Source: Escherichia phage EC115
Reading direction: 5' to 3' (one strand)
Sequence record: NC_073080.1
DNA length: 44,849 nt
Shown here: one piece after another, positions 11,761-40,315 of the stretch
Numbering within the stretch: position 1 is the stretch's first letter
How the letters are laid out: each line of letters begins with the position of its first letter
Program-made: the position numbers and the translations under genes
Notes under the pieces: generated by a model
The model's input: the letters and a program-made list of their open reading frames with translations, nothing else
The model's database searches: none
What the model was told of the DNA's origin: nothing

Positions 11761-11764
11761 CGAA

Positions 11765-12076
11765 GCGGGACAGGCGGGACGTCCCGTTTTGTCCCGCCAC
11801 CATTAAACCGCATATATACTCACTTTCATTGCATAAACTAAAAGCGGGACAGGGGTGCTGTCCCGATCTGTCCCGCCCCTCAAAAGTGAATGGCTATGCG
11901 GTTTTTCTGCATAAAACAAACGGGACAGAAAGCGGGACAGAATGAGGCGGGACAAAGCGGGACAGCACCCCTGTCCCAGTCAGTGCTGCCGCTGGTTTTA
12001 GCCGATCGGGACAGGCGGGACAAAGCCCAGTCTTTCAGACTAGACGGGGGTCAATGGCCCCCCTCGTCTGAGACTG
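11765..12076. repeat. Iteron array: about 13 copies of GCGGGACA(G/A) in both orientations plus a ~48 bp imperfect palindrome
   Basis: Direct and inverted GGGACAG copies, including GGGACAG-N5-CTGTCCC and GGGACGTCCC palindromes; ends with AGTCTTTCAGACTAGACGGGGG-N7-CCCCCCTCGTCTGAGACTG; 33-mer shared exactly with the array at 39942-40099. Confidence 0.75.
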
Positions 12077-12144
12077 AATAAGGTTTGTTTTAAATTCGCT
12101 GATACAATGACCGACGGCAACTGCATAAAAAGGGGGACTGCATA

Positions 12145-14787
12145 ATGGCAGATCAGGCAGCGGGCATCACGCTCAAGGCGGACGTCGCGCAAATTAAAAC
12201 GGCTAATACTGTGCTGGACACATTCGCGCAGAAATCCGAGAACACAGAACAGAAAGTAAAGAAATTAAACGACACACTCGGCAAGTCGAAAAAGGTTACT
12301 GGCGACGCCGCGGGCGGAATGGAAAAGTTAGCGACTGAATCGCAGCGCGCCGCCGACGGCATGACGAAACAGGAGCGACTAGCCAGCCGATTAGGCATGT
12401 CGACCAAAAACCTGGGATTTGCTTCACGGAACGCGGCATTCCAGTTACAGGATATTGCGGTAACGCTTGAGATGGGTATGCCGGTGCACCGCGTCATGCT
12501 TCAGCAGTTACCACAGCTAACCGGCGCATTCGGCGGATTAGGTAACACGCTGCGTTATGTTGCGGGCTTCCTCGGCCCAGTAGGGATCGGACTTGCGGCA
12601 GTAACGGCGACGTTAGGCGTGGGCGTGGCAATCACGTCACGGGCAGAGAACCAGGTAGCCGCGCTTAATAAGACGCTGGCGCTGTCCGGTAATATTTCAG
12701 GCCTCACAGCTAACCAGATCCTTGTGCTGTCCGAGAACGCTGAGCGCATGGGCGGGTCATTTCGCAAGACGCGTGACACAATCCAGGCGCTGGCGGCGGC
12801 GGGTGTGAAAGCGGGTGGTGACTTCGGCGCATTGGCTAAGGTAGTTAATGACTTTGCGAAGGTGTCCAGCCAGCCGATCGAGGATGTGGTGGCGGCGGTG
12901 GCGAAGCTGTCAACCGACCCCGTTGGCGGACTGCGTGCGCTGGCGGATAAGTATCACGTCGTAAACGAAGCGCAGATCCAGCAGGTACAGTCGCTCGTTG
13001 ATGCGGGTCGTGAGACAGACGCAGTTGCGTTGGCTAACAAAACAGCCGCTGCGTCGTTCACCAGTATGACCAATGAGATCAAGGCGAACATGGGTACGCT
13101 TGAGCGATCTATGAACGTCGTCACATCGGCAGCCAAATCAATGTGGGATGCCATCCTGGATGTGGGCCGCGCGCAGTCCTCCAATGAGTCCGAGATGAAA
13201 GCGCGCGAATCACTACAGCGCATGACCACGGCTTACTATGCCGAGATGAAAGCGGTAAACGCTGCCGGTGGGGTAATGACTGAAGCGCAGAAAGCACGTA
13301 TTAACATGCTTTACAGCGAACTGGTCGCCCAGGAAAAAGTGGTGGCGTCGCTCACCCTGCGTAACCGTGCTGAGCGAGACAACGCCCGCGCCGCAGACGA
13401 ATCCGCAAAGGCGAACGAGGAGGCCAACCGCACTGCCCGTGACCGCGCCGCGTTCGAGAAGGAATACGCCACCAACGCTAAGAAGCGCGCCGACGAGATC
13501 GCCCGCCTCAATTTGCTGAATAAGCGCGGCGTTATTGATGAGAAAGAACTAGCCGAGGCGGTGAAGCAGGTAAACGAGCGGTACAAAGACCCAGCCCCGA
13601 AAAAGGCCGCGGCTGTTCGCGTGGATGCCGGTATGAAAATGCTGGAAGTCGCACGGAGCGAACTGGCCCAGCTTCGAGAATCCGGCAAGCAGATCGAAGC
13701 CAACGCGTCTACGCAGACCCGCACGCAACGCGCTCAAGCGGCCTTAAACAAGCTGATCGCCGACAATGAGCAGTTAATCGCTGCGAGCAAAGAAAGAGCG
13801 CTAACGGCAGCAGAAAAGCAGCAATTAGTCGAGTTCGGGCGCGTGAAGGAAGTCCGCGAGCAGATCGTCGAAGAAGCCAAATTGCTGGATGCGAAAGAGC
13901 AGCAGGTTAAGGCGCACGCGCAGATCGATGCCTTCGTTAAGAACCAGAACGCCGAACTAAAAGCCACCGCCGCGGGGTATGCGCTTTCCACTCGCGAAGC
14001 GGCAAACCTGCGCGAAGAATTGCAGCTAATTGACCGCCTGAAGCGGGTTGGCGCTAACGATACCGATATTGACAAGGCGGTGTCTAAGCTGCGAGAAGTG
14101 CAGGAAGCACAGACCGGCGCTAACGCCTCGTTATGGGATGGATTCAGTCGCGGGCTTAAGGATAGCGTGGATGAAATGGGTAACGGATATACGCAGATGG
14201 CGTCGCTCACGAAATTTACATTCAGCGCTATGCAGGACACGATGAACGAGTTTTTCGAGACTGGTAAGCTGAACGCAAAGGATATGGTTAAGTCCATCCT
14301 GAGCGAATTAATCAAGCTGGCTACCTCGCAGGCGTTCAAGTCCATCGTTAGCGCTTTCGGTGGTGACGGCGGCAAAAACGGATTGTTCGGCGCTATCTTC
14401 TCTGGCCTCACTAAGAATGCGGACGGCGGAGCGTACACAGGCGGCAATCTCGCGGCCTATTCGGGGAAAGTGGTAAGCCAGCCTACCTTTTTCAGTTATG
14501 GCGTCCAGGCGTTCGCTAAGGGCGCTGGGTTGATGGGTGAGGCTGGACCCGAGGCCATCATGCCACTGAAGCGCGGGCCGGACGGGAAACTGGGCGTTGC
14601 CGCGTCTGGCGCAGGCGGTGGTATGGTCGTGACGACTAACGTTTACACGGGGACCGGTAAGACGGACACCAGTGTTAGCGGGCCAGACCCACGTACCGCG
14701 CAGGCGTTCGGCAAGCAAATCACCGAGGCGGTGAAGTCCGAGATCGTGAAAGCGACTAAACCAGGTGGTGTACTTTACAAACGATGA
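12145..14787 (+). CDS. Tail tape measure protein
   Basis: 880 aa, Ala/Gln-rich coiled-coil with Gly-rich C-terminal region; follows G/GT and precedes the M-L-K-I-J block. Confidence 0.9.
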   Translation: MADQAAGITLKADVAQIKTANTVLDTFAQKSENTEQKVKKLNDTLGKSKKVTGDAAGGMEKLATESQRAADGMTKQERLASRLGMSTKNLGFASRNAAFQLQDIAVTLEMGMPVHRVMLQQLPQLTGAFGGLGNTLRYVAGFLGPVGIGLAAVTATLGVGVAITSRAENQVAALNKTLALSGNISGLTANQILVLSENAERMGGSFRKTRDTIQALAAAGVKAGGDFGALAKVVNDFAKVSSQPIEDVVAAVAKLSTDPVGGLRALADKYHVVNEAQIQQVQSLVDAGRETDAVALANKTAAASFTSMTNEIKANMGTLERSMNVVTSAAKSMWDAILDVGRAQSSNESEMKARESLQRMTTAYYAEMKAVNAAGGVMTEAQKARINMLYSELVAQEKVVASLTLRNRAERDNARAADESAKANEEANRTARDRAAFEKEYATNAKKRADEIARLNLLNKRGVIDEKELAEAVKQVNERYKDPAPKKAAAVRVDAGMKMLEVARSELAQLRESGKQIEANASTQTRTQRAQAALNKLIADNEQLIAASKERALTAAEKQQLVEFGRVKEVREQIVEEAKLLDAKEQQVKAHAQIDAFVKNQNAELKATAAGYALSTREAANLREELQLIDRLKRVGANDTDIDKAVSKLREVQEAQTGANASLWDGFSRGLKDSVDEMGNGYTQMASLTKFTFSAMQDTMNEFFETGKLNAKDMVKSILSELIKLATSQAFKSIVSAFGGDGGKNGLFGAIFSGLTKNADGGAYTGGNLAAYSGKVVSQPTFFSYGVQAFAKGAGLMGEAGPEAIMPLKRGPDGKLGVAASGAGGGMVVTTNVYTGTGKTDTSVSGPDPRTAQAFGKQITEAVKSEIVKATKPGGVLYKR

Positions 14788-25457: not shown

Positions 25458-25461
25458 GTTT

Positions 25462-27399: not shown

Positions 27400-27404
27400 C
27401 CAAT

Positions 27405-30094: not shown

Positions 30095-30122
30095 AAATGG
30101 CGGGACAAGCCCGCCGTATTAA

Positions 30123-30296
30123 TTATTTTTGCTCTGCGCGGTAGCGGCGCTGCCGTTCGCGCTCTTTTTTATTGCGGCACGATTTGCACTCCGCCCGATA
30201 CCCGTCCGGGCTACGCGCAGTCTTGCCGGTGTATTTGTGGAACTGGGATAGCGGTTTAACGCAGCCGCAATTACTGCAGCGTTTTTCTTCAATCAT
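30123..30296 (-). CDS. Small zinc-ribbon protein
   Basis: 57 aa from ATG 30296 (GAGGA RBS); CxxC...CxxC motif and basic C-terminus. Confidence 0.5.
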   Translation of the reverse strand: MIEEKRCSNCGCVKPLSQFHKYTGKTARSPDGYRAECKSCRNKKERERQRRYRAEQK

Positions 30297-30327
30297 TTCT
30301 AAAATCCTCGATATGGCTAACCGGCAC

Positions 30328-30356
30328 ACTATACCGCTATGCGACCAATTCAGCAA
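30328..30356 (-). promoter_or_regulatory. Candidate sigma70 promoter
   Basis: Minus strand TTGCTG-N17-TATAGT upstream of the zinc-ribbon gene. Confidence 0.35.
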
Positions 30357-30615
30357 CCAATAAATCACAGTCGGCGATGTTGTCTATAACGCGAACGTCA
30401 GCGCCGCGGCGGGCCATCCGCTCATGTTCACGTACCTGGTGCGGCTTCGGTTTTCCTCCTGGGCGCTTCACTTCGACGAACACTATTTTGCCGTTGATGA
30501 TGATAATCAGGTCGGGCGCACCTGCGCGCCCCTCCCAGGCCATTTTGCGGCAGAATCCGCCTACCTCTTTCACCCGTCGCATCAGGTGACTTTGAATCTT
30601 GCCTTCTGGTGTCAT
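30337..30615 (-). CDS. VRR-NUC domain nuclease
   Basis: 92 aa from ATG 30615; PDLIIIINGKIVFVEVKRPGGKPKPHQ matches the VRR-NUC D...E.K core; start overlaps the polymerase stop. Confidence 0.7.
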   Translation of the reverse strand: MTPEGKIQSHLMRRVKEVGGFCRKMAWEGRAGAPDLIIIINGKIVFVEVKRPGGKPKPHQVREHERMARRGADVRVIDNIADCDLLVAELVA

Positions 30616-32906
30616 TACTTCCTGTACCTGTACATGATGTCGCCTTCGGCGGCAAGCGGGAAGCCTTTCGCCCAAATCGGCAGGTCGCACATCAGCGCGC
30701 ATAGCTCCTCGGTCGTGTAGTCGTCAGTATCCGGAACCTCGGTGATCAGTTCATCGTGTACGGACAGTACGATCTCATATCCCGCAGCTTCAACGCCAGG
30801 CATGGACCATGCGAGGATATCGCGACACAGCGCCTGTACGATGTTTTCCGTGAGTTTGCCGCCGTAGGTGTACTGGAAGCCCCACTGGCGGGTCGTCTGA
30901 TTCTCGCCCTGATATTTAATGCGGGTGCTGGTGCGTTTCTTGCCAGTATCTTCGTCGATCTCGGTAGTGACAGACAGCGCAATGCCTGGATAACTCATAA
31001 TACGCCCCGACGGCAACTCAATTTTCAACCACCACCCCGCGGCGTTCGGGTCGTCGCGTTCCTCGTCGAAGGTTGGGTCATGCTTCGCCTTCGTGCGGAC
31101 TATCTTGAGCGCTTTCTTACCATCCGGGCGAACGTTCGCGCCAGCCCAGTACGCTTTGCCAGGATTGCGGATTGCACACAACACCGCGTCCTCAAGCTCG
31201 GCCCAAAAGGCTACCGTCTTCGGGTGCGCCTCTCGCCACATGCGTTTAATCGCATCACACGTAAGCCATACGTTTTTCGGCAGTATGTAAGTCGGGCGCT
31301 CGTCCTTCTTGCCAGGCTTCGGCGGTCGCTTCGCTTCGTTAATGCGGGCGTACGCATAACCCCGTTTAGCCGCTGCCCAAATGTGATCGGGGAATGTGCC
31401 CTTCATGACGTCCGCCATCGCGTAAAGGTCGAGGCCCAGGTTTTTAGCGAACTGCAAGAACGCAGCCACGCCGCCGCCATAGCCAAGTCCCAACTCACAC
31501 GCCTTACCAATCTGGCGTAGGTCTTTGCGGTTGGCTTTAATGTATTCCGGGTCAAGGCCGAACATCTTACCGGCAGTTTCACAATAAATATCGCGACCGG
31601 CCCTAAACACCATTAGCGCGGTTTTCTCACCAGCGATCCAGGCGAGGCCACGCCCTTCCACGTTAGAATAGTCCGCTACGACAAACTTCTTACCCTTCGC
31701 TGGAATAATGCACCCGCGAACGGTCGAGGCCGTTAGCTTCGATATGTCATACGCCCAGTGCGCTGTCCCGCGTAACAGGGAGTTTATGCCGTTGGTGAGC
31801 ATGTGCGACCGCACCCAAAACGCGACGTCGCTCTCGCCTTCACGGCGTTTAATCTTCCCTTCGTGGTCGTCGCTATACTCGCCGCGTGCCAGGTTTTGCG
31901 GCTGGAAGCCTTTACCGGCCCAGCGTAGCGTGCGTTTCGCCCCACCATACTGGAGACACCCACGACGGCGACCATCTGCAGATAAGCCATTAACGAGCGG
32001 ATTGTACTTAGTCGATGCCGTTGATGATGCACCGAGGCGCATCTCGATAAGCACTTTGCCCTCGTCGGGGAAGTCCGGGTCTTCCAGCAGGTCGTTAAGC
32101 GTGGATTTCTGCGCGTTGTGTATTGTGAACGCAGGCGCGAGGTCGCGCAGCGCTGGCAGGAAGTCATTGCCTGTCAGCTTACCGCCGAAGCGCTCCCATG
32201 CTTCTTCCTTCAATTCTTCCTTATGCGCCTGCACCGCTTTGATCGCGGCGTTCGCCAGGTCAACGTCCACATAGAAGCCGCGGTCGTTGATCAACTGGTC
32301 AATAAGCAGGATTTCATCTTCCTTCGGCGTGTTACCCCAGTCCGGTATGCGCCAGTAGACTTCCCTCATCGCTATAATGTCAAGCGCGGCATAGCGCAGG
32401 AATTTAGCCCACTCCTCGGGGTGCGTCTCGCGCGTGTAGCGGCGGATTTTGTAGGTCTTAGGGGTTGGCTTACAGAATCGTTTGATCAGCGCCTTGCCCG
32501 CCTTATCCTTCGCGTGCTCTGCGTCAACGCCCAGCACCTGGCATTGCATATCGAGGCTACCCGGCAGCGCGTGGCGAAAGGCCATAATCATGGTATCTTC
32601 GATCTGGCCTACCGGCAGGTCAATGCCCCACTTCTCGCGAATAACCAGGCGGTCAAACAGGAGGCCGTTAGCCATCACGATTTTTGCTTTCTTGCGGGAT
32701 ACCTGGCGGAGCGCCTTGCGCAGTTCACGCGGCATTGTGGGGGATTCGGTGCAATCCCAGGTCTGCACGCGGCCCTCGTCGATGGCGTATGTGCAAATCA
32801 TAATCTCAGTAGTTGGGTGTTCCGCGTAGGCGTATGCGCCCACTTTCTTCAGATCCACCCCGCTAAATGTCTCGGTATCGAGAAACAGGCGTTCAAAGTC
32901 TTTCAT
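30615..32906 (-). CDS. DNA polymerase, family A (3'-5' exonuclease plus polymerase)
   Basis: 763 aa; Exo I-like LDTETFS, motif A-like VADYSNVEGR, motif B-like RQIGKACELGLGYG, motif C LSVHDELI. Confidence 0.9.
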   Translation of the reverse strand: MKDFERLFLDTETFSGVDLKKVGAYAYAEHPTTEIMICTYAIDEGRVQTWDCTESPTMPRELRKALRQVSRKKAKIVMANGLLFDRLVIREKWGIDLPVGQIEDTMIMAFRHALPGSLDMQCQVLGVDAEHAKDKAGKALIKRFCKPTPKTYKIRRYTRETHPEEWAKFLRYAALDIIAMREVYWRIPDWGNTPKEDEILLIDQLINDRGFYVDVDLANAAIKAVQAHKEELKEEAWERFGGKLTGNDFLPALRDLAPAFTIHNAQKSTLNDLLEDPDFPDEGKVLIEMRLGASSTASTKYNPLVNGLSADGRRRGCLQYGGAKRTLRWAGKGFQPQNLARGEYSDDHEGKIKRREGESDVAFWVRSHMLTNGINSLLRGTAHWAYDISKLTASTVRGCIIPAKGKKFVVADYSNVEGRGLAWIAGEKTALMVFRAGRDIYCETAGKMFGLDPEYIKANRKDLRQIGKACELGLGYGGGVAAFLQFAKNLGLDLYAMADVMKGTFPDHIWAAAKRGYAYARINEAKRPPKPGKKDERPTYILPKNVWLTCDAIKRMWREAHPKTVAFWAELEDAVLCAIRNPGKAYWAGANVRPDGKKALKIVRTKAKHDPTFDEERDDPNAAGWWLKIELPSGRIMSYPGIALSVTTEIDEDTGKKRTSTRIKYQGENQTTRQWGFQYTYGGKLTENIVQALCRDILAWSMPGVEAAGYEIVLSVHDELITEVPDTDDYTTEELCALMCDLPIWAKGFPLAAEGDIMYRYRK

Positions 32907-33073
32907 TGCTTAATCCTCACTACGGCGTCGGCGCTGCCGATCATGGAGAAGATACCGTCGGAAAGGGTTATCTCCTCGCCGTTGTTACGAACCTCGGCAA
33001 CGGTGAAATACTCGCCCAGCAGTTTAGACCATACCTGCATTCCGACTTTTACTTCGCTGGCTTTAATGCGCAT
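32903..33073 (-). CDS. Small ORF translationally coupled to polymerase (hypothetical)
   Basis: 56 aa (MRIKASEVKVGMQVWSKLLGEY...), AGGA RBS, ATGA overlap with the polymerase start; below the ORF-track size cutoff. Confidence 0.3.
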   Translation of the reverse strand: MRIKASEVKVGMQVWSKLLGEYFTVAEVRNNGEEITLSDGIFSMIGSADAVVRIKQ

Positions 33074-33084
33074 TTTTCATTGTC

Positions 33085-33113
33085 CTATTAAAAAGCCCGC
33101 ATTAAGCGGGCTT
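33085..33113 (-). terminator. Intrinsic terminator after SSB gene
   Basis: On the minus strand AAGCCCGC-uuaau-GCGGGCUU followed by UUUAAU. Confidence 0.45.
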
Positions 33114-33131
33114 GAATAGTGGGCTTTGCCC

Positions 33132-33914
33132 TTAACGGCGGCGACGTTTACGTGGCGCTTCGTCTTCGTCGTCGTCCTCATCTTCGTCATCGCGTGGCTT
33201 ACGACGTTTACGAGGTTTCTCGTCTTCGTCATCATCATCGTCATCGCGGCGCTTGGACTTTTTGGACTTGCGCGGCTTGTCGTCTTCGTCATCGTCATCA
33301 CGACGTTTTGACTTTTTGGACTTGCGCGGGCTTTCATCTTCGTCATCGTTGTCCAGGTCTTCGTCTGAGCAAGAAGAACCGCCACCGCCGAAGGCTTCGC
33401 CGTCATCGCGGAAGCGCAGACCCAAAAGACCCGCACCGAGTCCCTTGCCGTTGGTATTGTTCCACGCCCAAATGTCGAGGGACACGTTGCAATAACAACC
33501 GGAGTAGATCTCCTGGCCTTCGATCTCGTCACCTTCTACGGTCAGACCTTGTTCAGTCTGTTTCTCGCCGAGTGACGTTTGAATGTTTGGCTGCTTGAAC
33601 GATTTGGCGTTGATGTACAACATGCCTTCAAATTCTTCGGTTACTTCGTCACGCTCGTCACCGTCGCGGACTGCGCATTCCTTAGAATCCTGGGCGTAGT
33701 GCCGGTCCATCCACTTATCGGCATTCTTCTCGGATTTCAGCTTGTCGGTGAGCACTGCGCGCGCTGCCGCTTCCACTTTGTCCACCAGCGGATCTTCTTT
33801 ATCCAGAAGAATCACTGCACGGTATGCCGGTTTTTGTCCATCCTGTTTAGGGGTATCACGTTCCCAAATTTTCAGGAAACATACGCGCACATTTTTCAGG
33901 TTGACTTTAGCCAT
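33132..33914 (-). CDS. Single-stranded DNA-binding protein (T7 gp2.5 / DUF2815-like) with repetitive charged C-terminal tail
   Basis: N-terminus MAKVNLKNVRVCF... (start at ATG 33914 with GAGGA RBS; track ORF 33935); C-terminal third is three DDDDEDDKPRKSKKSKRR-type repeats. Confidence 0.55.
   Translation of the reverse strand: MAKVNLKNVRVCFLKIWERDTPKQDGQKPAYRAVILLDKEDPLVDKVEAAARAVLTDKLKSEKNADKWMDRHYAQDSKECAVRDGDERDEVTEEFEGMLYINAKSFKQPNIQTSLGEKQTEQGLTVEGDEIEGQEIYSGCYCNVSLDIWAWNNTNGKGLGAGLLGLRFRDDGEAFGGGGSSCSDEDLDNDDEDESPRKSKKSKRRDDDDEDDKPRKSKKSKRRDDDDDDEDEKPRKRRKPRDDEDEDDDEDEAPRKRRRR
33160..33340 (-). repeat. Tandem ~57-60 bp repeats (3 copies) inside SSB gene
   Basis: Repeated cgtcttcgtcatcgtcatc...gactttttggacttgcgcgg units on the plus strand. 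Confidence 0.7.
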
Positions 33915-34004
33915 TTTCCAATTCCTCATTTTCACATGTATCGGGGTTATTATGAGCCACCCCGTTCGGCTTGGTTGCTAATCTACTTGGTTGCGCCTAA
34001 GCGA

Positions 34005-34247
34005 TCAAGCACTTTTATTAAAAAGATTTCTGGTCACGTAGTTGGTAGCGTTCTCGACCCAGCTTAACGGCGGTCGGTCGATGTTCTTCTCCACCCAGTC
34101 GACGGCAGCGTCACTATATCCGTCGTCAAGCCAGCGGGTCGGATGGCGAATCATCCAGGCTACCATTAACACGCCTTGCACGCAATGCAGGATAAATCCC
34201 AGCGCGCCGAGCAAAAACATCAATAAGATCGCAAATACTTTATTCAT
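34005..34247 (-). CDS. Small membrane protein
   Basis: 80 aa with two hydrophobic helices (AILLMFLLGALGFIL; VLMVAWMI). Confidence 0.45.
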   Translation of the reverse strand: MNKVFAILLMFLLGALGFILHCVQGVLMVAWMIRHPTRWLDDGYSDAAVDWVEKNIDRPPLSWVENATNYVTRNLFNKSA

Positions 34248-35670
34248 TGCTTAAGTCCTCGTCAGTAGCTTCCGACCACGCAGGGCGCGGGTCGTCGATC
34301 GGTGCTAACACCGGTTTGGCGGGTGCGCGCGTGATTTTAGCACACAGCTTCGCCCACACTTTCGGTTTTTCGTCCTTCAGTACCTTCTCGGCATCGGTCG
34401 GGCTGAGCAATGTTTCTTTGTACATCACATCGCGCTTGATCCGGGCCTTCGTGAAGATTTCAATCACTTCGCTCTCGTCCGCCCACTTACGGATCCCTTC
34501 CTTACCGGCAACCATCTTGAGGCCTAGCGATTCGCCATCGCCCGCCATGACCGCCTTGAATACCGCTGACTCGATAGCCTTGATGTGCTGGCGCATCGCA
34601 TCAAGGCCTTCATAAGCCTTGCGCAGTTCCGCCGCGCTCATAGCGCCGGGGGCCGCTTCCTTCTTGCCGCGCTTCGCACGTCGGGCCGCCTTCCGGGCTT
34701 CGCGGGCCATATTGCGGTCGTGATTGGCGCATTCTTCCTCGGTCGCCACGCTCACGTCGTCGCCCAGGTCTTCGTCGGTTGCCGTTGGTGGTGTCATCGT
34801 GTCGATTGCGGCCTTCGCCCGGACGCTGCACTGGTCCGCAAATCTGCACCACTGGCACGCATCAACGCTCGGTCTGAAGTCGGCGCGGGTGAGTCCCTTT
34901 TTGCCTCTGGCGTACGCTTCCAGCGCGGCGATAGCGCGCTTGGATGCAAACTTCGCGAATATCTCCAGGGCTTCTACCGAAATATCCCATTCCGACGCCC
35001 CACCGCAATACGGCTGGAAGATAACCAAGCGCACAGACGTAATGTCGTACATGGTTTGCAGCTTGCGCAGCAGGCCGAGCGCGTACAACATAAGCTGTTT
35101 GTTTTCTTTCGCCTCGACCTTATGCCGCCCAGTCTTCAGGTCGCCAACAATCAGCATGTACGTCCCGTCGGTCTTTTTCATGACCATGACCATATCGGCA
35201 GTACCGAACGTTTTAATCCTGTTGCCGTCGATCTCGTAGCCTGAGTGAAGGACGCGGGTCAGGTCGGCGCGCATCTCAAGCTGGACAAACTCCGCCACTT
35301 CGAGGAGCGGTCGCCAGTGGTCGATGTACGCGTCGCACTGTTTCACCATGTCGTCGTTGACCAGTACGCCGCCTTTCGGTGCTTTAGGGTGTGCCTTCAC
35401 TGGCCCCTTGCCTTCGTTCTCGACGTAGCACCCTTTATACGTCTTTGCGGTTATCTGCTTCTCACCGGCGATAATACGGTTTAGCACCACTTCAGATACG
35501 GTGTGCATACTCGTACCGTTAATCGCGGCTTGCCCGGATTCGTTAGGGATATCTTTTTCCACCACCAGGGCGGCCGGACACCCCATCCATTTTTTAGCTC
35601 CGGATGGCCCGAGTAATGAGTGTTCCGTATTACTACCGGATTGCGTTTTACGTTTTGGTTTAATCGCCAT
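34240..35670 (-). CDS. PD-(D/E)xK exonuclease, DUF2800 / Cas4-like (putative)
   Basis: 476 aa; N-terminal HSLLGPSGAKKWMGCPA-type motif with a C-terminal Cys cluster (CQWCRFADQC); gene partner of the gp2.5-like SSB. Confidence 0.6.
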   Translation of the reverse strand: MAIKPKRKTQSGSNTEHSLLGPSGAKKWMGCPAALVVEKDIPNESGQAAINGTSMHTVSEVVLNRIIAGEKQITAKTYKGCYVENEGKGPVKAHPKAPKGGVLVNDDMVKQCDAYIDHWRPLLEVAEFVQLEMRADLTRVLHSGYEIDGNRIKTFGTADMVMVMKKTDGTYMLIVGDLKTGRHKVEAKENKQLMLYALGLLRKLQTMYDITSVRLVIFQPYCGGASEWDISVEALEIFAKFASKRAIAALEAYARGKKGLTRADFRPSVDACQWCRFADQCSVRAKAAIDTMTPPTATDEDLGDDVSVATEEECANHDRNMAREARKAARRAKRGKKEAAPGAMSAAELRKAYEGLDAMRQHIKAIESAVFKAVMAGDGESLGLKMVAGKEGIRKWADESEVIEIFTKARIKRDVMYKETLLSPTDAEKVLKDEKPKVWAKLCAKITRAPAKPVLAPIDDPRPAWSEATDEDLSNE

Positions 35671-35858
35671 TATTCCACCCTTGAAAACTGAGCAATGTAA
35701 TATTCATGTTTAACCCCAGCACGCTTCGCGGCTTCGTTCATGGTAGCCGCCAAACCTCTGGCTTGAGTCCAGCAGCAATTCCAGTTCTGATTCATAACGA
35801 TTTCCGGTTGCTCATCGCCGGTAATACGGCAACGAAATAAAACAAAGAATATAGCCAT
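35670..35858 (-). CDS. Hypothetical protein
   Basis: 62 aa ORF with abutting neighbours. Confidence 0.4.
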   Translation of the reverse strand: MAIFFVLFRCRITGDEQPEIVMNQNWNCCWTQARGLAATMNEAAKRAGVKHEYYIAQFSRVE

Positions 35859-36110
35859 TTATTTTGTCTCCCAGCGGTCAATCGTTCTTGCTTCGGATGC
35901 AACTGCAAAGCGAACATATTCCAGATTGGAATCCGCCCAAATATAAAAGTCGGGGTTAGTAAAGGTGGTGCGCTTAATTTGCGCGGGGGTGTTACGGCGT
36001 TTATCTATTACAGCAACGCGCGATTGAAAGCTGCCGATGCGTTCGAATAGCCAATAGTACGGGCGCTGGTCGCGGGAATCCACCGCCTCGATTAGCGTGA
36101 ATCGTGCCAT
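35859..36110 (-). CDS. Hypothetical protein
   Basis: 83 aa ORF with GAGGA RBS. Confidence 0.5.
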   Translation of the reverse strand: MARFTLIEAVDSRDQRPYYWLFERIGSFQSRVAVIDKRRNTPAQIKRTTFTNPDFYIWADSNLEYVRFAVASEARTIDRWETK

Positions 36111-36120
36111 TGTCTCGTCC

Positions 36121-36151
36121 TCTAAAAAGAGGCCCGCTAATATGCGGGCCT
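36121..36151 (-). terminator. Intrinsic terminator (leftward)
   Basis: On the minus strand AGGCCCGC-auauua-GCGGGCCU followed by CUUUUUA. Confidence 0.45.
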
Positions 36152-36288
36152 GATAATATTAATCTTCACCGCCGAGTTGTTTATAAACCTCGTCCGGGTC
36201 GTCGCCTCTTTCTTCGCAGAAGGCGGTGAATTCCGCCCAATTTTCTGCTATGAAATCGAGCATGATTCTCATTTCATAGTCCATGATA

Positions 36289-36828
36289 TTAGTCTTCCAG
36301 TTCGAAATAAGTTTCGACGATTTCTTTTAGCTCTGTGTGGAAGTCTTCGACGTCGTCATCTTCCAGCTTGGCGATTGATTTGATCTCGAACGATTCCAGA
36401 AGGTCGTCGAATTCGTCGTTGGCATCGTCGTCGTCACCACCCGCGATAATAGCGGCGTACTGTTTGATCTCGTCGCGCATCTCCGCCAGCGGATCGGCAT
36501 CTTTCTTACCTTTGCCTTTAGCCGGTGCTTTTTTGGTTTTCGCCGGTTTTACGTCATCGGCATCGTCGTCGTCGTCATCTTCTACGACTTCTTTTTTGGC
36601 TTTACCTTTAGACTTGGTTTCTTTTGCCGCGCCTTTTTTCGCTTTTGGCGCATCTTCGACTTCGTCCTGGTCGTCGTCTTCGACTTCAGTCTCCGGCTTG
36701 GCCTTGCCTTTCTTAGCTGTGCCGTTTGCTTTTGGGTCTACGGCAGCGCCAACGGTTTCATAATGCTTAGCGATGGTTTCCAGTGCTACTACGCCGCGAG
36801 TAATCAGGTTTACGATTTGTTCAAACAT
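36289..36828 (-). CDS. Highly charged low-complexity protein (alternating Lys-rich and Asp/Glu-rich blocks)
   Basis: 179 aa; first gene of the leftward operon with GGAG RBS; long poly-acidic runs interleaved with KKGKAK-type basic stretches. Confidence 0.6.
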   Translation of the reverse strand: MFEQIVNLITRGVVALETIAKHYETVGAAVDPKANGTAKKGKAKPETEVEDDDQDEVEDAPKAKKGAAKETKSKGKAKKEVVEDDDDDDADDVKPAKTKKAPAKGKGKKDADPLAEMRDEIKQYAAIIAGGDDDDANDEFDDLLESFEIKSIAKLEDDDVEDFHTELKEIVETYFELED

Positions 36829-37230: not shown

Positions 37231-37560
37231 ATGAATGTAAACGACGCAATCGAAATGTTAACGACGACTGTTAGCAGTGAAACAAGCCGGTCATGGGCTT
37301 ATACCGATGCCGTTGGGGCGGTGCTATTTGAGGTCGAGCGCCTGCGCAGTGTAGAAAAAGAATTACGCGCCAGGCTGGAATTGCTCAACGGTACGGCGGC
37401 GAGCAAGCTACAAAAACACAATGAAGAAATGGAAGAATACAAAAAGCAGGTTATCCGTTTGCGCGCCGAGGGCAAATCCTGGGCGATGATTGCCGAGTTG
37501 ACCGGAATTAATCAGAGCACAGTGCGCTCTTGGGTACGCAATAACAAAACTTCTAAGTAA
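37231..37560 (+). CDS. HTH DNA-binding protein (putative regulator)
   Basis: 109 aa; helical N-terminus and C-terminal HTH-like segment (SWAMIAELTGINQSTVRSW). Confidence 0.6.
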   Translation: MNVNDAIEMLTTTVSSETSRSWAYTDAVGAVLFEVERLRSVEKELRARLELLNGTAASKLQKHNEEMEEYKKQVIRLRAEGKSWAMIAELTGINQSTVRSWVRNNKTSK

Positions 37561-37570: not shown

Positions 37571-39835
37571 ATGAGCTTAATTAAATTCGCTGTAACAAGA
37601 CCCGCTAAAAAAGGCGAAAAAGCCAGGGCGGAAAACTTCCAGATGACGACCGATGAGTTTTTCGAATTTATCAAAGATGCGAAAGAAATCTCCTCGGTGC
37701 ATATCAACAAGACGGAAGATAAAGCCGAGTATGCGCGCCGCAAGCGTAAGGCCGACGGCATCGTGGCGTATACCAGTGACGGATTGCGTCGTAAGACCAG
37801 TGCGGTGGACCGCTCGATCCTGTTCTTTGATATCGACCGCACCGACACTCGCACCTTGCGCCGCTGCCGTAAGGCTTTCATCGATGCGGGTCTGGAACAC
37901 GTATTCCACACCACTACGGGCGACCGCCACCCGCTGAAGGGCGGAACGCGTTGCGCCCGATTCCTGGTGCTCACTGACAAGCCTGTCCCGGCGGAAGACC
38001 TGGGCCGTGTCCAGTATGCGCTATTACACCAACTTGGTCTGTCAGATGTGGACTTCGACGATTGCACGAAAGACACAAACCGCCTGATGTACCTGCCACA
38101 CCAGCAGTCTGTTATTAAGTGCCACTACGGAAAACGTGCCCGAGTCCGTCGTCTGCTTCGCCTGGCGGATAAGTTGGGCGTGGAGAAGGAGGAAGTACGC
38201 CGCGAACTAACCCAGGGCGATGACGCAGTGGCAGACGGCATTCTGGACTGGTGCTTCCAGGCAGGATTCGAGGAGTTATCTTCCGGTCGCGGTTATGAAG
38301 TGCCGTGCCCGAACGAACATCTGCACAGCGGCGAAGGGTCGACGGCTATCATGGTCAAGGATGGCGAGATCCGTTTCAAGTGTATGCACACCGGCAACGA
38401 GTGTTGCTCGGAACTGAATAGACACCAGCACCTGGCGCTGCGTCTTATCGGGATCCCTGACCACCTGAACGTCGAGCCACACAACATGTCCCGTAAGCAA
38501 ATCGCCGCCATCCTTCCGGGGCTGGACGACGAGGAAGTCGAATCCTTATATGAACATATTGTTGATGCGGTTGGCGACGGCGAAGAATACGGCGTGTGCA
38601 CCGATGCGGATCTGGATAACGAGCCGGTTGCGCTGTTCAGCAAGCACGACCCGATCATCGAGGGGTTGATTAACTTCAAATCGACCTGGTACATGGCGGG
38701 TGAGTCGAATATTGGTAAGTCTTTCTACGTGCTGGGTCAAATGGGCGCTGTTGCCGCCGGTATTCCGTTCGGCGGTGCGAAGGTCGTCCAGTCTCATTGC
38801 TTCTATTTCGATGCGGAAGGTGGTGAAGCCTCCAACCAGCGTAAAGAAGCATTGCAGATTAAATACGAGCACGACCTGGACAAGCTGCACATTATCGATC
38901 TGCAGTCACGCGGCTGGGATATCACCAGCAAATCCGGCTTGCGCGAAGTTATCAGCTTTATCAACCGCACCGCTAACGGCGAACCGGTTGGCCTGGTGGC
39001 GTTCGACTCACTCAACCAGACTGTTGCGCTGCGGTCCGCCGATGCTAAACCGTTCGACGAGAACAACGCCAGCGATATGGGTGAAGTGGTCAAAGCGCTG
39101 AAAGCCATTGCGGAAAATACAGGTGGCAGTGCGGGCGTCATCCACCACCCGGCGAAGGGTGCCAACGGCAGCAGAACCCCACGCGGATCCGGCGCGCTGC
39201 ATGGTGCTGTCGATTCTGCGTTCTTCCTGGAACAGCCGGACGACAACCAGCCCGGACAATTGAACCTGTATCACGAAAAGTCACGTAACGGCATCAAGCA
39301 AGCGCCGCGCGGCTTCGTCCTGCTCAAGTGCAAGGTGAAGGTGGATCTCCGCAAGTCAGAAGCGTTCGAGGTGCACCAGTCCACCAGCACCGGGCCAGAC
39401 TTCGGCGACGTGGTTGCCGGATGGGACGTCAAGCCGATTGCCTCCACGCCACGCGACGAGACTCTCTACCTCGTACCGGTTGCCCTGGCACCGTTCGCTA
39501 TTGAACAGGCGAAGGCCGCGGGCAAAGCAGCAGTTAAAGAAGAGAACACCGCCGGACCGCGCAACGAAAAAGAGAAAGTGCTTTATGCGGCACTGGAAAA
39601 ACTGATGGAAGATAACCCGGACCATACTGGATTCAGTAAATCGGCAATTGTCCGCCAGGCTGGGCTGGCAAAAGGTGGCACTTCGACGAAGGCAATCGAC
39701 GATATGGTAGAGCGCGGAGTGATAGGTTTTTACACCGATCCGCACACTGGGGCCATCTATGGGTCGTCTAATTTGGTCATCAAATCGGATATCCCCATCA
39801 CGCTTTCAGCGACCGATGACGATTTAAAAGATTAA
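37571..39835 (+). CDS. DNA primase / RecA-like P-loop helicase with C-terminal winged-helix-like domain
   Basis: 754 aa; N-terminal acidic FFDIDRTD motif, Cys/His zinc-binding segment, Walker A GESNIGKS and Walker B-like FYFDAEGG, C-terminal ~120 aa resembling a winged helix. Confidence 0.75.
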   Translation: MSLIKFAVTRPAKKGEKARAENFQMTTDEFFEFIKDAKEISSVHINKTEDKAEYARRKRKADGIVAYTSDGLRRKTSAVDRSILFFDIDRTDTRTLRRCRKAFIDAGLEHVFHTTTGDRHPLKGGTRCARFLVLTDKPVPAEDLGRVQYALLHQLGLSDVDFDDCTKDTNRLMYLPHQQSVIKCHYGKRARVRRLLRLADKLGVEKEEVRRELTQGDDAVADGILDWCFQAGFEELSSGRGYEVPCPNEHLHSGEGSTAIMVKDGEIRFKCMHTGNECCSELNRHQHLALRLIGIPDHLNVEPHNMSRKQIAAILPGLDDEEVESLYEHIVDAVGDGEEYGVCTDADLDNEPVALFSKHDPIIEGLINFKSTWYMAGESNIGKSFYVLGQMGAVAAGIPFGGAKVVQSHCFYFDAEGGEASNQRKEALQIKYEHDLDKLHIIDLQSRGWDITSKSGLREVISFINRTANGEPVGLVAFDSLNQTVALRSADAKPFDENNASDMGEVVKALKAIAENTGGSAGVIHHPAKGANGSRTPRGSGALHGAVDSAFFLEQPDDNQPGQLNLYHEKSRNGIKQAPRGFVLLKCKVKVDLRKSEAFEVHQSTSTGPDFGDVVAGWDVKPIASTPRDETLYLVPVALAPFAIEQAKAAGKAAVKEENTAGPRNEKEKVLYAALEKLMEDNPDHTGFSKSAIVRQAGLAKGGTSTKAIDDMVERGVIGFYTDPHTGAIYGSSNLVIKSDIPITLSATDDDLKD

Positions 39836-39941
39836 ATTTTGCGCGCATTGGTTGCCATTTTGAGTGTTTTTAGCTGGTAGCATTGGTTGCCGTGTAGTGT
39901 GAATATAATGCATAGTTATGCAATAAAACTGCATAAAGTAA

Positions 39942-40099
39942 GCGGGACAAAAAGCGGGACAAACAGGAGGCGGGACAAAGCGGGACAGCACCCCTGTCCC
40001 GCCCCGGATGACGCGGCCTGACGAGGAGCGGGACAGCGGGACAGCACCCCAGTCTTTCAGACTAGACGGGGGGTCTGTCACCCCCCTCGTCTGAGACTG
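39942..40099. repeat. Second iteron array: GCGGGACA(A/G) repeats plus the same ~48 bp imperfect palindrome
   Basis: Six or more GCGGGACA copies; shares GCGGGACAAAGCGGGACAGCACCCCTGTCCC and AGTCTTTCAGACTAGACGGGGG...CCCCCCTCGTCTGAGACTG with the array at 11765-12076. Confidence 0.75.
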
Positions 40100-40258
40100 C
40101 ATAAAATCCAGGATTGCATAACGCACGGCAGCATGTTGCGGATTGCGGTCGTCGATGAACTAGGCAACCAATGCGAGGTGCAGAATGGCGGGCGGGAAAT
40201 GCAGTTTGCAGTCACAGCAGATAGCGATCAACTTTTTCATGCGCGTGATTAATATTGG

Positions 40259-40287
40259 TTGCATTCGGCCTGGCACCTTGCTATATT
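40259..40287 (+). promoter_or_regulatory. Sigma70-like promoter flanked by TTGGTTGCA copies
   Basis: TTGCAT-N17-TATATT; 9-mers at 40255-40263 and 40286-40294; GAGGA RBS before the ATG at 40316. Confidence 0.5.
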
Positions 40288-40315
40288 GGTTGCACACCAA
40301 CATGAGGACTGAACA

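What the first reader, a model, noticed from the sequence alone, without database searches (positions are those of the whole stretch)
39942..40099. Second copy of the iteron-plus-palindrome element right after the primase/helicase gene (ori/crr-like pair?)
About 100 nt downstream of the primase/helicase stop lies a second GCGGGACA array with the same GGGACAG-CACCC-CTGTCCC hairpin and the same long palindrome as the array 28 kb away. Two iteron sites, one next to a primase-helicase whose C-terminus resembles a winged-helix domain, parallels the satellite phage P4 ori/crr arrangement bound by the alpha primase-helicase. The hypothesis is that these are replication origin and cis-acting sites recognised by the phage primase.
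Basis: partly seen in the sequence, partly recalled or inferred. Interest (0 to 1): 0.8.

Follow-up and report, generated by a model that had tools for sequence, protein, structure and literature searches.

The report
Duplicated iteron replication origin, coliphage
The repeat cluster just after this E. coli phage's primase-helicase gene is most likely the phage's replication origin, read by a DNA-binding domain at the end of that enzyme, and an old second copy sits in the tail genes; this is a classical kind of origin in a little-studied phage group, supported here by comparison between genomes only, not by experiment.

Summary
The window is a complete Dhillonvirus genome (HK578/SSL-2009a/SO-1 type). 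A ~190-nt module occurs twice: 107 nt after the primase-helicase stop (39927-40105) and between the tail chaperone and tape-measure genes (11907-12085). Each copy holds CTGCATAAA, four direct CGGGACA iterons, an inverted iteron, a spacer, two more iterons and a 50-nt composite palindrome.

The origin reading is well supported by comparison. The protein is an AEP primase fused to a RepA-like (AAA_25) helicase and a C-terminal winged helix. Orthologues 37-48% identical keep the same post-gene architecture with different repeat words: CGGACAA, CCGACA, GGGATAA, GGGGAGA, TTGCGAGT. One natural chimera is 97-100% identical to phiEap-2 over residues 1-660. It has exchanged only the winged helix plus the iterons and palindrome, and its repeat word follows the winged helix. 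In 21 Dhillonvirus copies the iterons and palindrome stems never vary, while spacers and loops do.

The system is not a P4 alpha relative. It resembles SaPI Rep/ori, IncQ oriV and SPP1 oriL/oriR. The tail-operon copy occurs once per genome in no relative checked outside Dhillonvirus, and its role is open. The SO-1 GenBank record already flags both regions. No experiment exists.

The parts
37571..39835 (+). Primase-helicase gene (754 aa). It has an AEP-type primase-polymerase domain (about aa 1-205), a Cys/His zinc motif (aa 246-287), an AAA_25/RepA-like helicase (aa 357-531), a C-terminal winged helix and an acidic DDDLKD tail.
   Evidence: Pfam AAA_25 E = 2e-19. PHROG 3228 'replicative helicase-primase'. 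N-terminal AF2 model pLDDT 83, best PDB fold cyanophage S-2L PrimPol AEP domain E = 2.5e-5, then RSF1010 RepB'. Invariant residues C246, H252, C271, H273, C279, H285 and H287. RSF1010 RepA is the only solved-helicase sequence hit, E = 0.09.
39566..39781 (+). Coding region of the C-terminal winged helix (aa 666-737), the proposed iteron reader. The recognition helix starts GGT-STKAIDDMVERG.
   Evidence: AF2 topology H-H-H-beta-beta with pLDDT 80-91. Foldseek finds wHTH proteins with probability 0.9-0.99. The start of the recognition helix differs with each iteron type. The domain swaps together with the iterons in L167.
39845..39891 (+). Two GCATTGGTTGCC boxes, members of a genome-wide ATTGGTTGC motif.
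   Evidence: 14 copies against 0.45 expected.
39912..39941 (.). AT-rich stretch (77% AT) with TGCATA boxes, including CTGCATAAA at 39929-39937. It is a candidate DNA-unwinding element or site for a common factor.
   Evidence: CTGCATAAA occurs exactly 4 times, only flanking the two arrays. The equivalent pair of GAATAGTTATGCA boxes is kept in relatives with other iterons.
39942..39987 (+). Four direct GCGGGACA iterons (39942, 39954, 39970, 39980), spaced 12, 16 and 10 nt.
   Evidence: Invariant in 21 Dhillonvirus module copies while the spacers between them vary.
39980..40002 (.). Inverted iteron pair GCGGGACAG-CACCC-CTGTCCCGC (the small hairpin).
   Evidence: -11.4 kcal/mol. The inverted copy and its spacing vary between phages, and Ioannina has GCGGGAC|GTCCCG with no loop. 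This fits a protein site better than an obligatory hairpin.
40003..40027 (.). GC-rich spacer specific to array 2.
   Evidence: The spacer is conserved among array-2 copies and unlike the array-1 spacer.
40028..40043 (+). Two abutting iterons, GCGGGACA GCGGGACA.
40050..40099 (.). Long composite palindrome: an AGTCT/AGACT half-site pair, then G6-loop-C6, then a GTCT/AGACT pair. It is a candidate hairpin or cruciform and a possible single-strand initiation site.
   Evidence: Stems are invariant and the loop variable in Dhillonvirus. Equivalent palindromes with different but complementary arms occur in 8 other lineages.
40097..40121 (+). CTGCATAAA and TTGCATAA boxes closing the module.
40163..40294 (.). 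Inverted GGCAACCAATGC box (40163-40175) and two ATATTGGTTGCA boxes (40252-40263, 40283-40294) in front of ORF 40316. This is a probable promoter or operator region, not part of the duplicated module.
   Evidence: The sigma-70 scan found nothing at its threshold.
11763..11877 (.). Extra part of array 1: two palindromic iteron modules (11763-11798, 11842-11877) separated by an AT-rich stretch (11814-11843, 77% AT).
11907..11977 (+). Array 1 core: CTGCATAAA (11907-11915), four direct iterons (11920, 11932, 11947, 11957) and the inverted copy (hairpin 11957-11977).
11978..12022 (+). Array-1-specific spacer (11978-12005) and two iterons (12006-12013, 12015-12022).
12028..12076 (.). Array 1 copy of the long palindrome (loop TCAATGG).
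12099..12146 (+). Extended -10-like TGATACAAT (12099-12107), CTGCATAAA (12121) and CTGCATAAT, which overlaps the tape-measure ATG at 12145.
   Evidence: Conserved at the end of all array-1 copies.

Best explanation
Array 2 (39912-40121) is the phage's replication origin.

Proposed mechanism. The primase-helicase is a self-loading initiator. Its C-terminal winged helix binds the CGGGACA iterons. The RepA-like helicase ring is assembled at the adjoining AT-rich stretch. Opening of the duplex lets the long palindrome extrude as hairpins on either strand. The enzyme's own AEP primase domain then starts DNA synthesis for the phage's T7-like polymerase.

Array 1 (11763-12076) is an old duplicate of the same binding module, specific to Dhillonvirus, inserted between the tail chaperone and tape-measure genes and bound by the same domain. 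It most likely works as a second origin. Alternatively it acts as an initiator-bound fork barrier or enhancer, as proposed for SPP1 oriR or shown for P4 crr.

What is shown: the anatomy, the conservation pattern, the domain folds, and the co-inheritance of the winged helix with the repeat word. What is inferred: binding, unwinding, priming at the hairpin, and the role of the second copy.
For: 1. Position. Iteron arrays begin 0-110 nt after the stop codon of this gene in Dhillonvirus, in orthologues 37-68% identical, and in at least 18 unrelated IMG/VR phages whose AAA_25 helicases are only 23-28% identical and carry different primase types, either Prim-Pol or Toprim.

2. Repeat word changes with lineage while the architecture is kept. 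The order is iterons, AT-rich boxes, direct iterons, inverted iteron, GC spacer, two iterons, composite palindrome. The words are CGGGACA, CGGACAA, CCGACA, GGGATAA, GGGGATGA, GGGGAGA, GGGGATCA and TTGCGAGT.

3. Natural cassette swap. The L167 protein is 97-100% identical to phiEap-2 and L164-166 over aa 1-660 but 41-53% identical over aa 661-764. At DNA level both flanks are 88-98% identical, and only codons ~665-764 plus the iterons and palindrome are replaced. The repeat word matches the donor of the C-terminal domain. This excludes the primase, the helicase, the upstream HTH gene and the downstream genes as the specificity partner.

4. The C-terminal domain is a winged helix, and the start of its recognition helix is distinct for each iteron type.

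5. Selection. In 21 Dhillonvirus copies the six iterons and the palindrome stems are invariant, whereas inter-iteron spacers, the loop and the ~30-nt spacer vary. The spacer is array-specific, so the duplication is old and both copies are maintained.

6. A 77% AT stretch abuts the iterons.

7. Precedents. SaPI Rep uses a C-terminal winged helix on iterons immediately downstream of rep (PMC9371898). In RSF1010, RepC binds iterons, RepA unwinds and RepB' primes (as summarised in PMC4234260). pRN1 has a stem-loop origin downstream of its prim-pol/helicase gene. SPP1 has oriL at the initiator gene and oriR interrupting the late genes (PMC6316719).
Against: No binding, replication or marker-frequency data exist for any Dhillonvirus.

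GC skew follows transcription direction and gives no independent origin signal.

The swapped domain and the iterons are physically adjacent, so co-transfer alone does not prove recognition. It only shows that the rest of the protein tolerates either cassette.

The unrelated phages that share CGGGACA have C-terminal regions that cannot be aligned with this one (hhalign probability 1%).

Jerseyvirus and SonjaBuckley have an alignable C-terminal domain but no repeat cluster anywhere in the genome. One orthologue group (L154-159, L162) shows no obvious iteron.

A firing origin inside a late operon is unusual, and a crr-like dependence between the two sites is untested.
Confidence: 0.7

Rival explanations
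1. The second copy (array 1) is not a firing origin. It is an initiator-bound roadblock or enhancer. The primase-helicase bound there stalls the fork coming from array 2 and triggers the switch from circle-to-circle to concatemer-producing replication, as proposed for SPP1 oriR. Alternatively it loops to array 2 as a cis-required site, like P4 crr.
For: SPP1 oriR has the same layout as oriL, interrupts the virion-assembly genes, lies about 13 kb from oriL on the circular map, and is proposed to stall forks when bound by gp38. Array 1 likewise interrupts the tail operon and is 16.5 kb from array 2 on the circular map. Relatives such as phiEap-2 and St162 manage with a single site, so the second site is an add-on. 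The phage encodes an exonuclease, a gp2.5-like annealing protein and a small endonuclease, which could process a stalled fork. In P4, crr carries the same iterons as ori.
Against: Array 1 is a complete module with AT-rich stretch, iterons and palindrome, plus extra iteron palindromes. Nothing marks it as defective for initiation. No data on fork progression exist.
Confidence: 0.25
2. The arrays are transcriptional control regions. The repeats are operators where a phage protein, possibly the primase-helicase's own winged helix, switches the downstream plus-strand operons (tail genes; lysis and packaging genes). They do not start replication.
For: Both arrays lie at the head of plus-strand gene blocks. 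They are flanked by promoter-like boxes: TGATACAAT before the tape-measure gene, and ATATTGGTTGCA boxes before ORF 40316. A 109-aa sigma-70-region-4-like HTH protein is encoded next to the primase-helicase.
Against: Across lineages the arrays track the 3' end of the helicase gene, not a particular downstream operon. In the L167 chimera the upstream HTH gene and the downstream promoter and genes are unchanged while the repeat word changes. The genome-wide promoter-like motif (ATTGGTTGC) is a different word from the iteron. The sigma-70 promoter and terminator scans found nothing above shuffles.
Confidence: 0.1
3. The elements act as structured RNA (a small RNA, an antiterminator of the HK022 put type, or a terminator) transcribed from the plus strand.
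For: Both copies lie in the sense orientation within plus-strand transcription units and contain stable hairpins. The arms of the palindrome differ between lineages but stay complementary.
Against: No Rfam family reaches threshold. The best hit is radC at 17 bits against 40 needed, with an unconvincing alignment. No T-run follows the hairpins. The small hairpin is replaced by a loop-less palindrome in Ioannina and is imperfect in many genomes. The most conserved units are 7-nt direct repeats with variable spacing, which is a protein-site pattern. Complementary arms are equally expected for a DNA hairpin or a symmetric protein site.
Confidence: 0.03
4. Array 1 is a passive duplicate or a mobile repeat, or the arrays serve packaging or recombination, with no role in replication.
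For: The duplication was not found in the two relatives outside Dhillonvirus checked as whole genomes. Variants are exchanged between the two copies, which shows recombination between them. Several public assemblies break at the repeat.
Against: In array 1 the iterons and palindrome stems are 100% conserved while its private spacer has diverged from that of array 2. This indicates purifying selection on the same sub-elements. Array 1 is present in essentially all of the 157 records. The terminase genes are 11 kb away.
Confidence: 0.05

Closest known systems
SaPI Rep / PriRep and the SaPI origin (Staphylococcus aureus pathogenicity islands)
   Same: A self-loading initiator helicase, fused to a primase in SaPI5, whose C-terminal winged helix reads short iterons. 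Six to twelve iterons lie immediately downstream of the rep ORF. An AT-rich region sits within the origin, with iterons in both orientations. Specificity types differ between elements (PMC9371898).
   Different: The SaPI helicase is an AAA+ SF3 enzyme moving 3'-5'. Here the core is AAA_25/RepA-like (RecA-type) with an AEP primase. SaPI origins lack the long composite palindrome and occur once per element.
IncQ plasmid RSF1010 oriV with RepC, RepA and RepB'
   Same: Iterons bound by an initiator, an adjacent AT-rich segment opened by a RepA helicase, and palindromic single-strand initiation hairpins (ssiA, ssiB) used by an AEP-type primase RepB'. RSF1010 RepA is the only solved-helicase sequence hit (E = 0.09). 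RepB' is among the best folds for the N-terminus (E = 0.013). The mechanism is summarised in PMC4234260.
   Different: RSF1010 uses three separate proteins, whereas here one polypeptide carries all three functions. RSF1010 iterons are 20 bp rather than 7-8 bp. The similarity is at fold level only. Priming at the palindrome is inferred, not shown.
Bacillus phage SPP1 oriL / oriR bound by gp38
   Same: A 44-kb virulent siphovirus with two similarly organised origin sequences (direct repeats plus an AT-rich unwinding element). One is at the initiator gene. The other interrupts the conserved virion-assembly gene order, about 13 kb away on the circular map. The initiator binds both, and oriR is proposed to stall forks and trigger concatemer synthesis (PMC6316719 and PMC3485210).
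   Different: gp38 is a separate origin-binding protein that needs a loader (gp39) and a DnaB-type helicase (gp40) plus the host primase. oriL lies inside gene 38 rather than after it. No sequence relationship was tested or expected.
Satellite phage P4 alpha protein with ori and crr
   Same: One multifunctional primase-helicase with a C-terminal winged-helix origin-binding domain. Two distant clusters of the same 8-bp iteron, one of which (crr) lies directly after the alpha gene (PMC4234260).
   Different: There is no homology. P4 alpha is Zn-ribbon + Toprim + D5_N/SF3 + Pox_D5, and the best BLASTP E-value is 5.3. The P4 iteron is TGTTCACC. P4 ori and crr differ in organisation, whereas here both copies are the same complete module.
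Sulfolobus plasmid pRN1 ORF904 and its downstream stem-loop origin
   Same: An AEP prim-pol + helicase + C-terminal winged helix in one protein. The origin lies downstream of the gene and needs an intact long stem-loop. The authors noted similar arrangements in some phages (PMC4234260).
   Different: pRN1 has an SF3 helicase, no iterons and a 100-nt stem-loop, and it is archaeal.

Membership tests
Iteron-type replication origin read by its own initiator (generic class) | A cluster of short repeats far above chance, conserved while the spacers between them vary | tested here: met
   19 against 2.2 expected. Six iterons are invariant and the spacers variable in 21 copies.
Iteron-type replication origin read by its own initiator (generic class) | An AT-rich unwinding segment next to the repeats | tested here: met
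   77% AT over 30 nt at 39912-39941 and at 11814-11843, against a genome average of 45%. Unwinding itself was not tested.
Iteron-type replication origin read by its own initiator (generic class) | Repeat word co-varies with the initiator's DNA-binding domain | tested here: met
   Eight repeat words occur among orthologues, each with its own recognition-helix start. The L167 chimera shows the word following the C-terminal domain.
Iteron-type replication origin read by its own initiator (generic class) | Initiator binds the repeats and the site supports initiation | not testable with these tools
   This needs EMSA or footprinting and origin-function assays. No published data were found.
P4 alpha / ori-crr system | Initiator homologous to P4 alpha (Zn-ribbon, Toprim primase, D5-type SF3 helicase, Pox_D5 C-terminus) | tested here: not met
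   P4 alpha carries those Pfam domains. The window protein has only AAA_25 and an AEP fold. BLASTP E = 5.3. The profile search of PDB sequences returned no P4 alpha entry, and none appears in the 50 matches shown by the fold search of the C-terminal model.
P4 alpha / ori-crr system | Two distant clusters of the same iteron, both required in cis | tested here: inconclusive
   Two clusters of the same iteron are present. The cis requirement cannot be tested. Relatives have only one cluster.
SaPI Rep-type self-loading helicase origin | C-terminal winged helix on the helicase, with iterons immediately downstream of the ORF | tested here: met
   (fold). (position).
SaPI Rep-type self-loading helicase origin | AAA+ SF3 helicase core homologous to SaPI Rep | tested here: not met
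   The core is Pfam AAA_25, and the nearest solved helicase sequence is RSF1010 RepA. No SaPI Rep chain was returned by the profile search of PDB sequences.
IncQ (RSF1010) replication system | RepA-like helicase and RepB'-like AEP primase | tested here: inconclusive
   AAA_25 E = 2e-19. RepA 1g8y scores only E = 0.09 by profile. RepB' 3h20 Foldseek E = 0.013, probability 0.84, behind S-2L PrimPol at E = 2.5e-5. The resemblance is at fold level, and no family membership is shown.
IncQ (RSF1010) replication system | Hairpin single-strand initiation sites used by the primase | not testable with these tools
   A stable palindrome is present and keeps complementary arms across lineages. Priming there is inference.
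SPP1-type two-origin arrangement | Two similarly organised initiator-binding regions, one at the initiator gene and one interrupting the late structural genes | tested here: met
   (array 1 between the tail chaperone and tape-measure genes, array 2 after the initiator gene), compared with the description in PMC6316719.
SPP1-type two-origin arrangement | Homology to gp38/gp39/gp40 | not tested
   The domain content differs: a single fused protein here against three proteins in SPP1. No sequence comparison was run.
Rfam RNA families | Match at the family's gathering score | tested here: not met
   There were 0 hits at gathering score for the whole window. Only sub-threshold chance-level hits fell in the two regions.

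The most novel reading that the evidence does not exclude
Dhillonvirus, Kagunavirus-like phages and many uncultured phages share an undescribed replicon type. A single polypeptide combines the three IncQ functions: an AEP primase, a RepA-like helicase and an iteron-binding winged helix. Its specificity sits in a portable cassette of about 560 bp (winged helix + iterons + priming palindrome). This cassette is exchanged between phages and so defines replicon 'compatibility types'. In Dhillonvirus the cassette's DNA half was additionally copied into the tail operon, where the bound initiator acts as a programmed fork trap or second origin that times the switch to concatemer synthesis and late-gene dosage.
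Probability: 0.3. Interest if true: 0.7.

Novelty: new variant of a known kind. Interest (0 to 1): 0.55.

Why it matters
Dhillonviruses and their Kagunavirus-like relatives are common E. coli and Salmonella phages. They are used in phage-therapy and biocontrol studies and in the BASEL collection, yet their origin of replication is undefined.

A defined origin together with its cognate reader domain would help in several ways:
- It would allow minimal replicons and engineering handles.
- It predicts that plasmids carrying the arrays could interfere with the phage, through titration of the initiator.
- It predicts cross-interference or compatibility between phages by iteron type.
- It would give a tractable E. 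coli model for a one-protein initiator-helicase-primase.

The natural cassette swap shows how replication specificity is exchanged as a unit. The duplicated copy in the tail operon offers a Gram-negative counterpart to the SPP1 oriR question of whether a second initiator site fires or stalls forks.

Tried and rejected
- GC-skew profile. It tracks transcription strand only, with a minimum near 37 kb and a maximum near 24 kb, so it says nothing about the arrays.
- Rfam at gathering and permissive thresholds. Nothing credible appeared, and the radC hit at 17 bits was inspected and dismissed.
- Sigma-70 promoter and intrinsic-terminator scans. Results were at or below shuffle expectation. My hand-picked TTGCAT-17-TATATT promoter does not pass the scan's threshold.
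- Literature searches for Dhillonvirus, HK578, SO-1 and the repeat word itself. There is no study of the repeats, and the word search returned only unrelated primer sequences. The SO-1 GenBank note on regions A and B is cut off after 'possible ...'.
- hhalign of the Dhillon C-terminal domain against the C-terminal region of the unrelated CGGGACA-associated helicases. No similarity was detected.
- RNAalifold on a MAFFT alignment of palindromes from 13 lineages. The alignment is not structure-aware and only 5 pairs were recovered, so each sequence was folded separately instead.
- Dating the duplication in the deepest Dhillon-like lineage. The tail-chaperone region of that contig could not be retrieved.
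- Host-factor ideas considered from memory and dropped: Pho box, LexA box, sigma-54 promoter, DnaA box. The sequences do not fit.
- Packaging-site and mobile-element readings. See the rival explanations.
Full report
WHAT THE WINDOW IS. The 44,849-nt window is a complete genome of a Dhillonvirus, a virulent E. coli siphovirus of the HK578/SSL-2009a/JL1/EP23/Sodalis SO-1 group. Both regions of interest match 157 phage records at 80-100% identity. Gene order follows SSL-2009a. Packaging, head and tail genes lie on the plus strand (1-24262). A replication block lies on the minus strand (24289-36828). A second plus-strand block starts with a 109-aa HTH protein (37231-37560) and the 754-aa primase-helicase (37571-39835), followed by small genes, lysis genes and an SbcD-like gene.

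THE OBSERVATION. It is confirmed. GCGGGACA occurs 19 times against 2.2 expected, with 7 copies at 39942-40043 and 8 at 11765-12022. The two regions align over about 190 nt at 78% identity. The shared module reads, in order:
- CTGCATAAA
- four direct iterons, spaced 10-16 nt
- an inverted iteron that forms GCGGGACAG-CACCC-CTGTCCC with the last direct one
- a spacer of about 25-30 nt
- two more iterons
- a 50-nt composite palindrome
- a TGCATAA-type box

Array 2 begins 107 nt after the primase-helicase stop. Array 1 fills a 384-nt gap between the tail-chaperone reading frames (ending 11760) and the tape-measure gene (12145). Array 1 also has two extra palindromic iteron modules at 11763-11798 and 11842-11877. 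The Sodalis phage SO-1 GenBank record already annotates the two homologous stretches as repeat 'region A' and 'region B', noting their mutual similarity. The bare observation is therefore not new. I found no paper that analyses it.

THE PROTEIN.
- Pfam recognises only an AAA_25 (RepA/RecA-type) helicase core at aa 357-531.
- An AlphaFold model of aa 1-345 (pLDDT 83) matches the AEP primase-polymerase domain of cyanophage S-2L PrimPol (E = 2.5e-5), then LigD polymerase domains and the RSF1010 primase RepB'.
- An invariant Cys/His motif lies at aa 246-287.
- A model of aa 630-754 has a confident core (pLDDT 80-91) with helix-helix-helix-strand-strand topology. Its best PDB matches are winged-helix proteins: MarR, IclR, histone H1, Rio2 and ORC. 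E-values are weak (0.009-0.3) but probabilities are 0.9-0.99.
- By sequence profile the only solved helicase relative is RSF1010 RepA (E = 0.09).
- P4 alpha has a different domain set and no detectable similarity.

The enzyme is therefore an AEP primase + RepA-like helicase + winged helix, ending in a conserved acidic tail.

COMPARATIVE EVIDENCE, FIRST LINE: THE SAME WORD ELSEWHERE. I scanned IMG/VR for two GCGGGACA words 1-9 nt apart. Besides Dhillonviruses, this returned 49 loci with no nucleotide similarity to the window that carry arrays of four or more CGGGACA. In at least 18 of them the array starts at, or overlaps, the 3' end of a large gene with an AAA_25 core only 23-28% identical to this one, in the same orientation. 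Their N-terminal primases differ: Prim-Pol with or without PriCT_2 in some, Zn-ribbon/Toprim in others. Each array ends in a palindrome made of the last direct iteron, a GC-rich inner stem with a TTTA/TAAA/TATA loop, and an inverted iteron. The inner stem differs in every phage but is always self-complementary. The constant partner of the repeats is thus the helicase and its C-terminus, not the primase.

SECOND LINE: ORTHOLOGUES WITH OTHER WORDS. Full-length orthologues (37-68% identical) were collected from isolate genomes, IMG/VR and assemblies. Nearly all have a 300-650-nt non-coding stretch after the gene with the same order of parts but different repeat words:
- CGGGACA in Dhillonvirus, including a 68% lineage that also keeps the long palindrome
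- CGGACAA in phiEap-2 and relatives
- CCGACA
- GGGATAA
- GGGGATGA
- GGGGAGA in St162
- GGGGATCA
- TTGCGAGT

The composite palindrome also changes its half-sites (AGACT, GATGA, GAGGA, GGAGA) while remaining foldable. Each repeat word goes with its own residues at the start of the predicted recognition helix.

THIRD LINE: A NATURAL DOMAIN SWAP. The L167 protein is 97-100% identical to those of phiEap-2, L164 and L166 over aa 1-660, but only 41-53% identical over aa 661-764. There it is closest to L158 and L170. At DNA level, L167 and phiEap-2 are 88-98% identical on both sides, including the upstream HTH gene region and the downstream promoter and genes. There is no similarity across codons ~665-764 plus the iterons and palindrome. 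L167 carries the CCGACA word and GATGA half-sites of the donor of its C-terminal domain, not the CGGACAA and AGACT of phiEap-2. The winged helix and the repeats therefore travel as one cassette, and the rest of the enzyme works with either. Adjacency alone would favour co-transfer, so this is strong but not conclusive evidence of recognition.

SELECTION WITHIN DHILLONVIRUS. In 21 distinct copies of the module, the six iterons and the palindrome stems are invariant. The inter-iteron spacers, the palindrome loop and the inverted copy vary. The ~30-nt spacer is specific to array 1 or array 2. The duplication is therefore old, and both copies are kept under the same constraint. Some variants (the loop, and the form of the iteron pair before the palindrome) are exchanged between the two arrays. 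The small 'hairpin' is imperfect in many genomes and is a loop-less palindrome in phage Ioannina, which fits a protein site better than an obligatory hairpin. A 77% AT stretch abuts the iterons in both arrays. phiEap-2 and St162 have the element once only, so in the genomes checked the tail-operon copy is confined to Dhillonvirus.

MOST LIKELY MECHANISM (confidence about 0.7 for the origin reading). The winged helix binds the iterons. The helicase ring assembles at the AT-rich stretch. Opening lets the palindrome form hairpins, and the AEP domain primes for the phage polymerase. Binding, melting and priming are inferred from the following precedents:
- SaPI Rep, a C-terminal winged helix reading iterons directly after rep.
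- RSF1010, with RepC iterons, RepA unwinding and RepB' priming at hairpins.
- pRN1, with a required stem-loop after the prim-pol/helicase gene.

For the second copy the best precedent is SPP1. Its oriR has the same layout as oriL, interrupts the virion-assembly genes, and is proposed to stall forks when bound by the initiator. Whether array 1 fires, stalls forks or acts like P4 crr cannot be decided here.

WHAT DOES NOT FIT.
- The unrelated CGGGACA-bearing phages have C-terminal regions that cannot be aligned with this one.
- Jerseyvirus and SonjaBuckley have an alignable C-terminal domain but no repeat cluster.
- One orthologue group shows no clear iteron.
- About 31 of the 49 foreign arrays have no helicase gene within 2.5 kb.
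- GC skew is uninformative.

RIVALS. A purely transcriptional role is disfavoured. The arrays track the helicase gene rather than a downstream operon, the L167 swap leaves the neighbouring regulator and promoter unchanged, and the genome-wide promoter-like word ATTGGTTGC (14 copies against 0.45 expected) differs from the iteron. A structured-RNA role is disfavoured by the Rfam results, the absence of T-runs, and the variability of the small hairpin. A passive duplicate is disfavoured by the conservation pattern in array 1.

VERDICT. It is a new variant of a known kind: an iteron origin read by a self-loading primase-helicase. It is unrelated to P4 alpha by descent. Its distinctive features are an IncQ-like combination of functions in one protein, a swappable specificity cassette, and a duplicated copy in the tail operon. 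No experiment has tested any of this.

Noticed in passing
window 6174, 22280, 25481, 27379/27396, 30353, 37034, 39847/39882, 40164, 40254/40285, 40840, 43427: ATTGGTTGC occurs 14 times against 0.45 expected, mostly in pairs in intergenic, promoter-like positions. Five copies lie in the gap that holds array 2. Relatives carry TGTTGGCTGC or ACGGCAGCA at equivalent places. It is probably a phage promoter or operator element. The 109-aa sigma-70-region-4-like HTH protein (37231-37560) is a candidate partner.
   Followed up: partly
window 11907, 12121, 39929, 40097; L125, L161-L171 post-gene regions: Exact CTGCATAAA occurs only four times, always flanking the two arrays. Relatives with quite different iterons keep two GAATAGTTATGCA boxes at the same place. 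This AT-rich box is therefore read by something lineage-independent (a host factor?) or serves as the unwinding element.
   Followed up: partly
L005-L124 (IMG/VR), e.g. L076 5028-5195, L051 1678-2141, L052 8640-8780, L099 751-982: Arrays of CGGGACA ending in an iteron-flanked GC hairpin follow AAA_25 primase-helicase genes in many unrelated uncultured phages with Prim-Pol or Toprim primases. The same 7-mer is used although the C-terminal regions are not alignable with the Dhillonvirus one. About 31 further arrays have no helicase gene nearby.
   Followed up: partly
L167 3496-4057 versus L172 (phiEap-2) 39589-40169: A clean recombinational replacement of about 560 nt covers the winged-helix codons plus iterons and palindrome, between otherwise 88-98% identical phages. 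It is a natural specificity-cassette swap.
   Followed up: yes
window 39815-39832 and all orthologues: Every orthologue ends in an acidic tail ..DDDL(K/E)(D/N). This is reminiscent of the polymerase-contacting acidic tail of T7 gp4 and gp2.5. The phage also encodes a gp2.5-like SSB and a family-A polymerase.
   Followed up: no
window 33163-33401 (minus-strand gene 33132-33935): There is a cluster of CGTCATC/CTTCGTC repeats (6-7 copies) inside the gp2.5-like SSB gene. It is a coding repeat for an acidic stretch, not an iteron array.
   Followed up: no
L126 (SonjaBuckley) 33060-33470; L127 (SETP3) 34400-34850: These relatives have an alignable C-terminal winged helix. After the gene they have only a terminator and a convergent HTH gene, and there is no repeat cluster anywhere in the genome. 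Their origin is unaccounted for.
   Followed up: partly
public records MG065648.1, OQ221563.1, OQ291023.1; L195; MK138527.1: Records labelled Campylobacter phage A144, Acinetobacter phage NJ01 and Salmonella phage Kenya-K19 are 92-98% identical to this coliphage in the array regions searched, so their host labels look doubtful. Several records or contigs start or end inside the arrays, as expected for assembly breaks at a 190-nt repeat.
   Followed up: no
window 12099-12107: An extended -10-like TGATACAAT lies 38 nt before the tape-measure start codon and is conserved in all array-1 copies. The insertion may bring its own promoter for the distal tail genes.
   Followed up: no
L096 6640-6980: A 15-nt tandem repeat GGTCTGCG(C)GGGACA, with more than 20 units, was picked up by the pattern scan. 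It has a different organisation from the iteron arrays and is probably unrelated.
   Followed up: no
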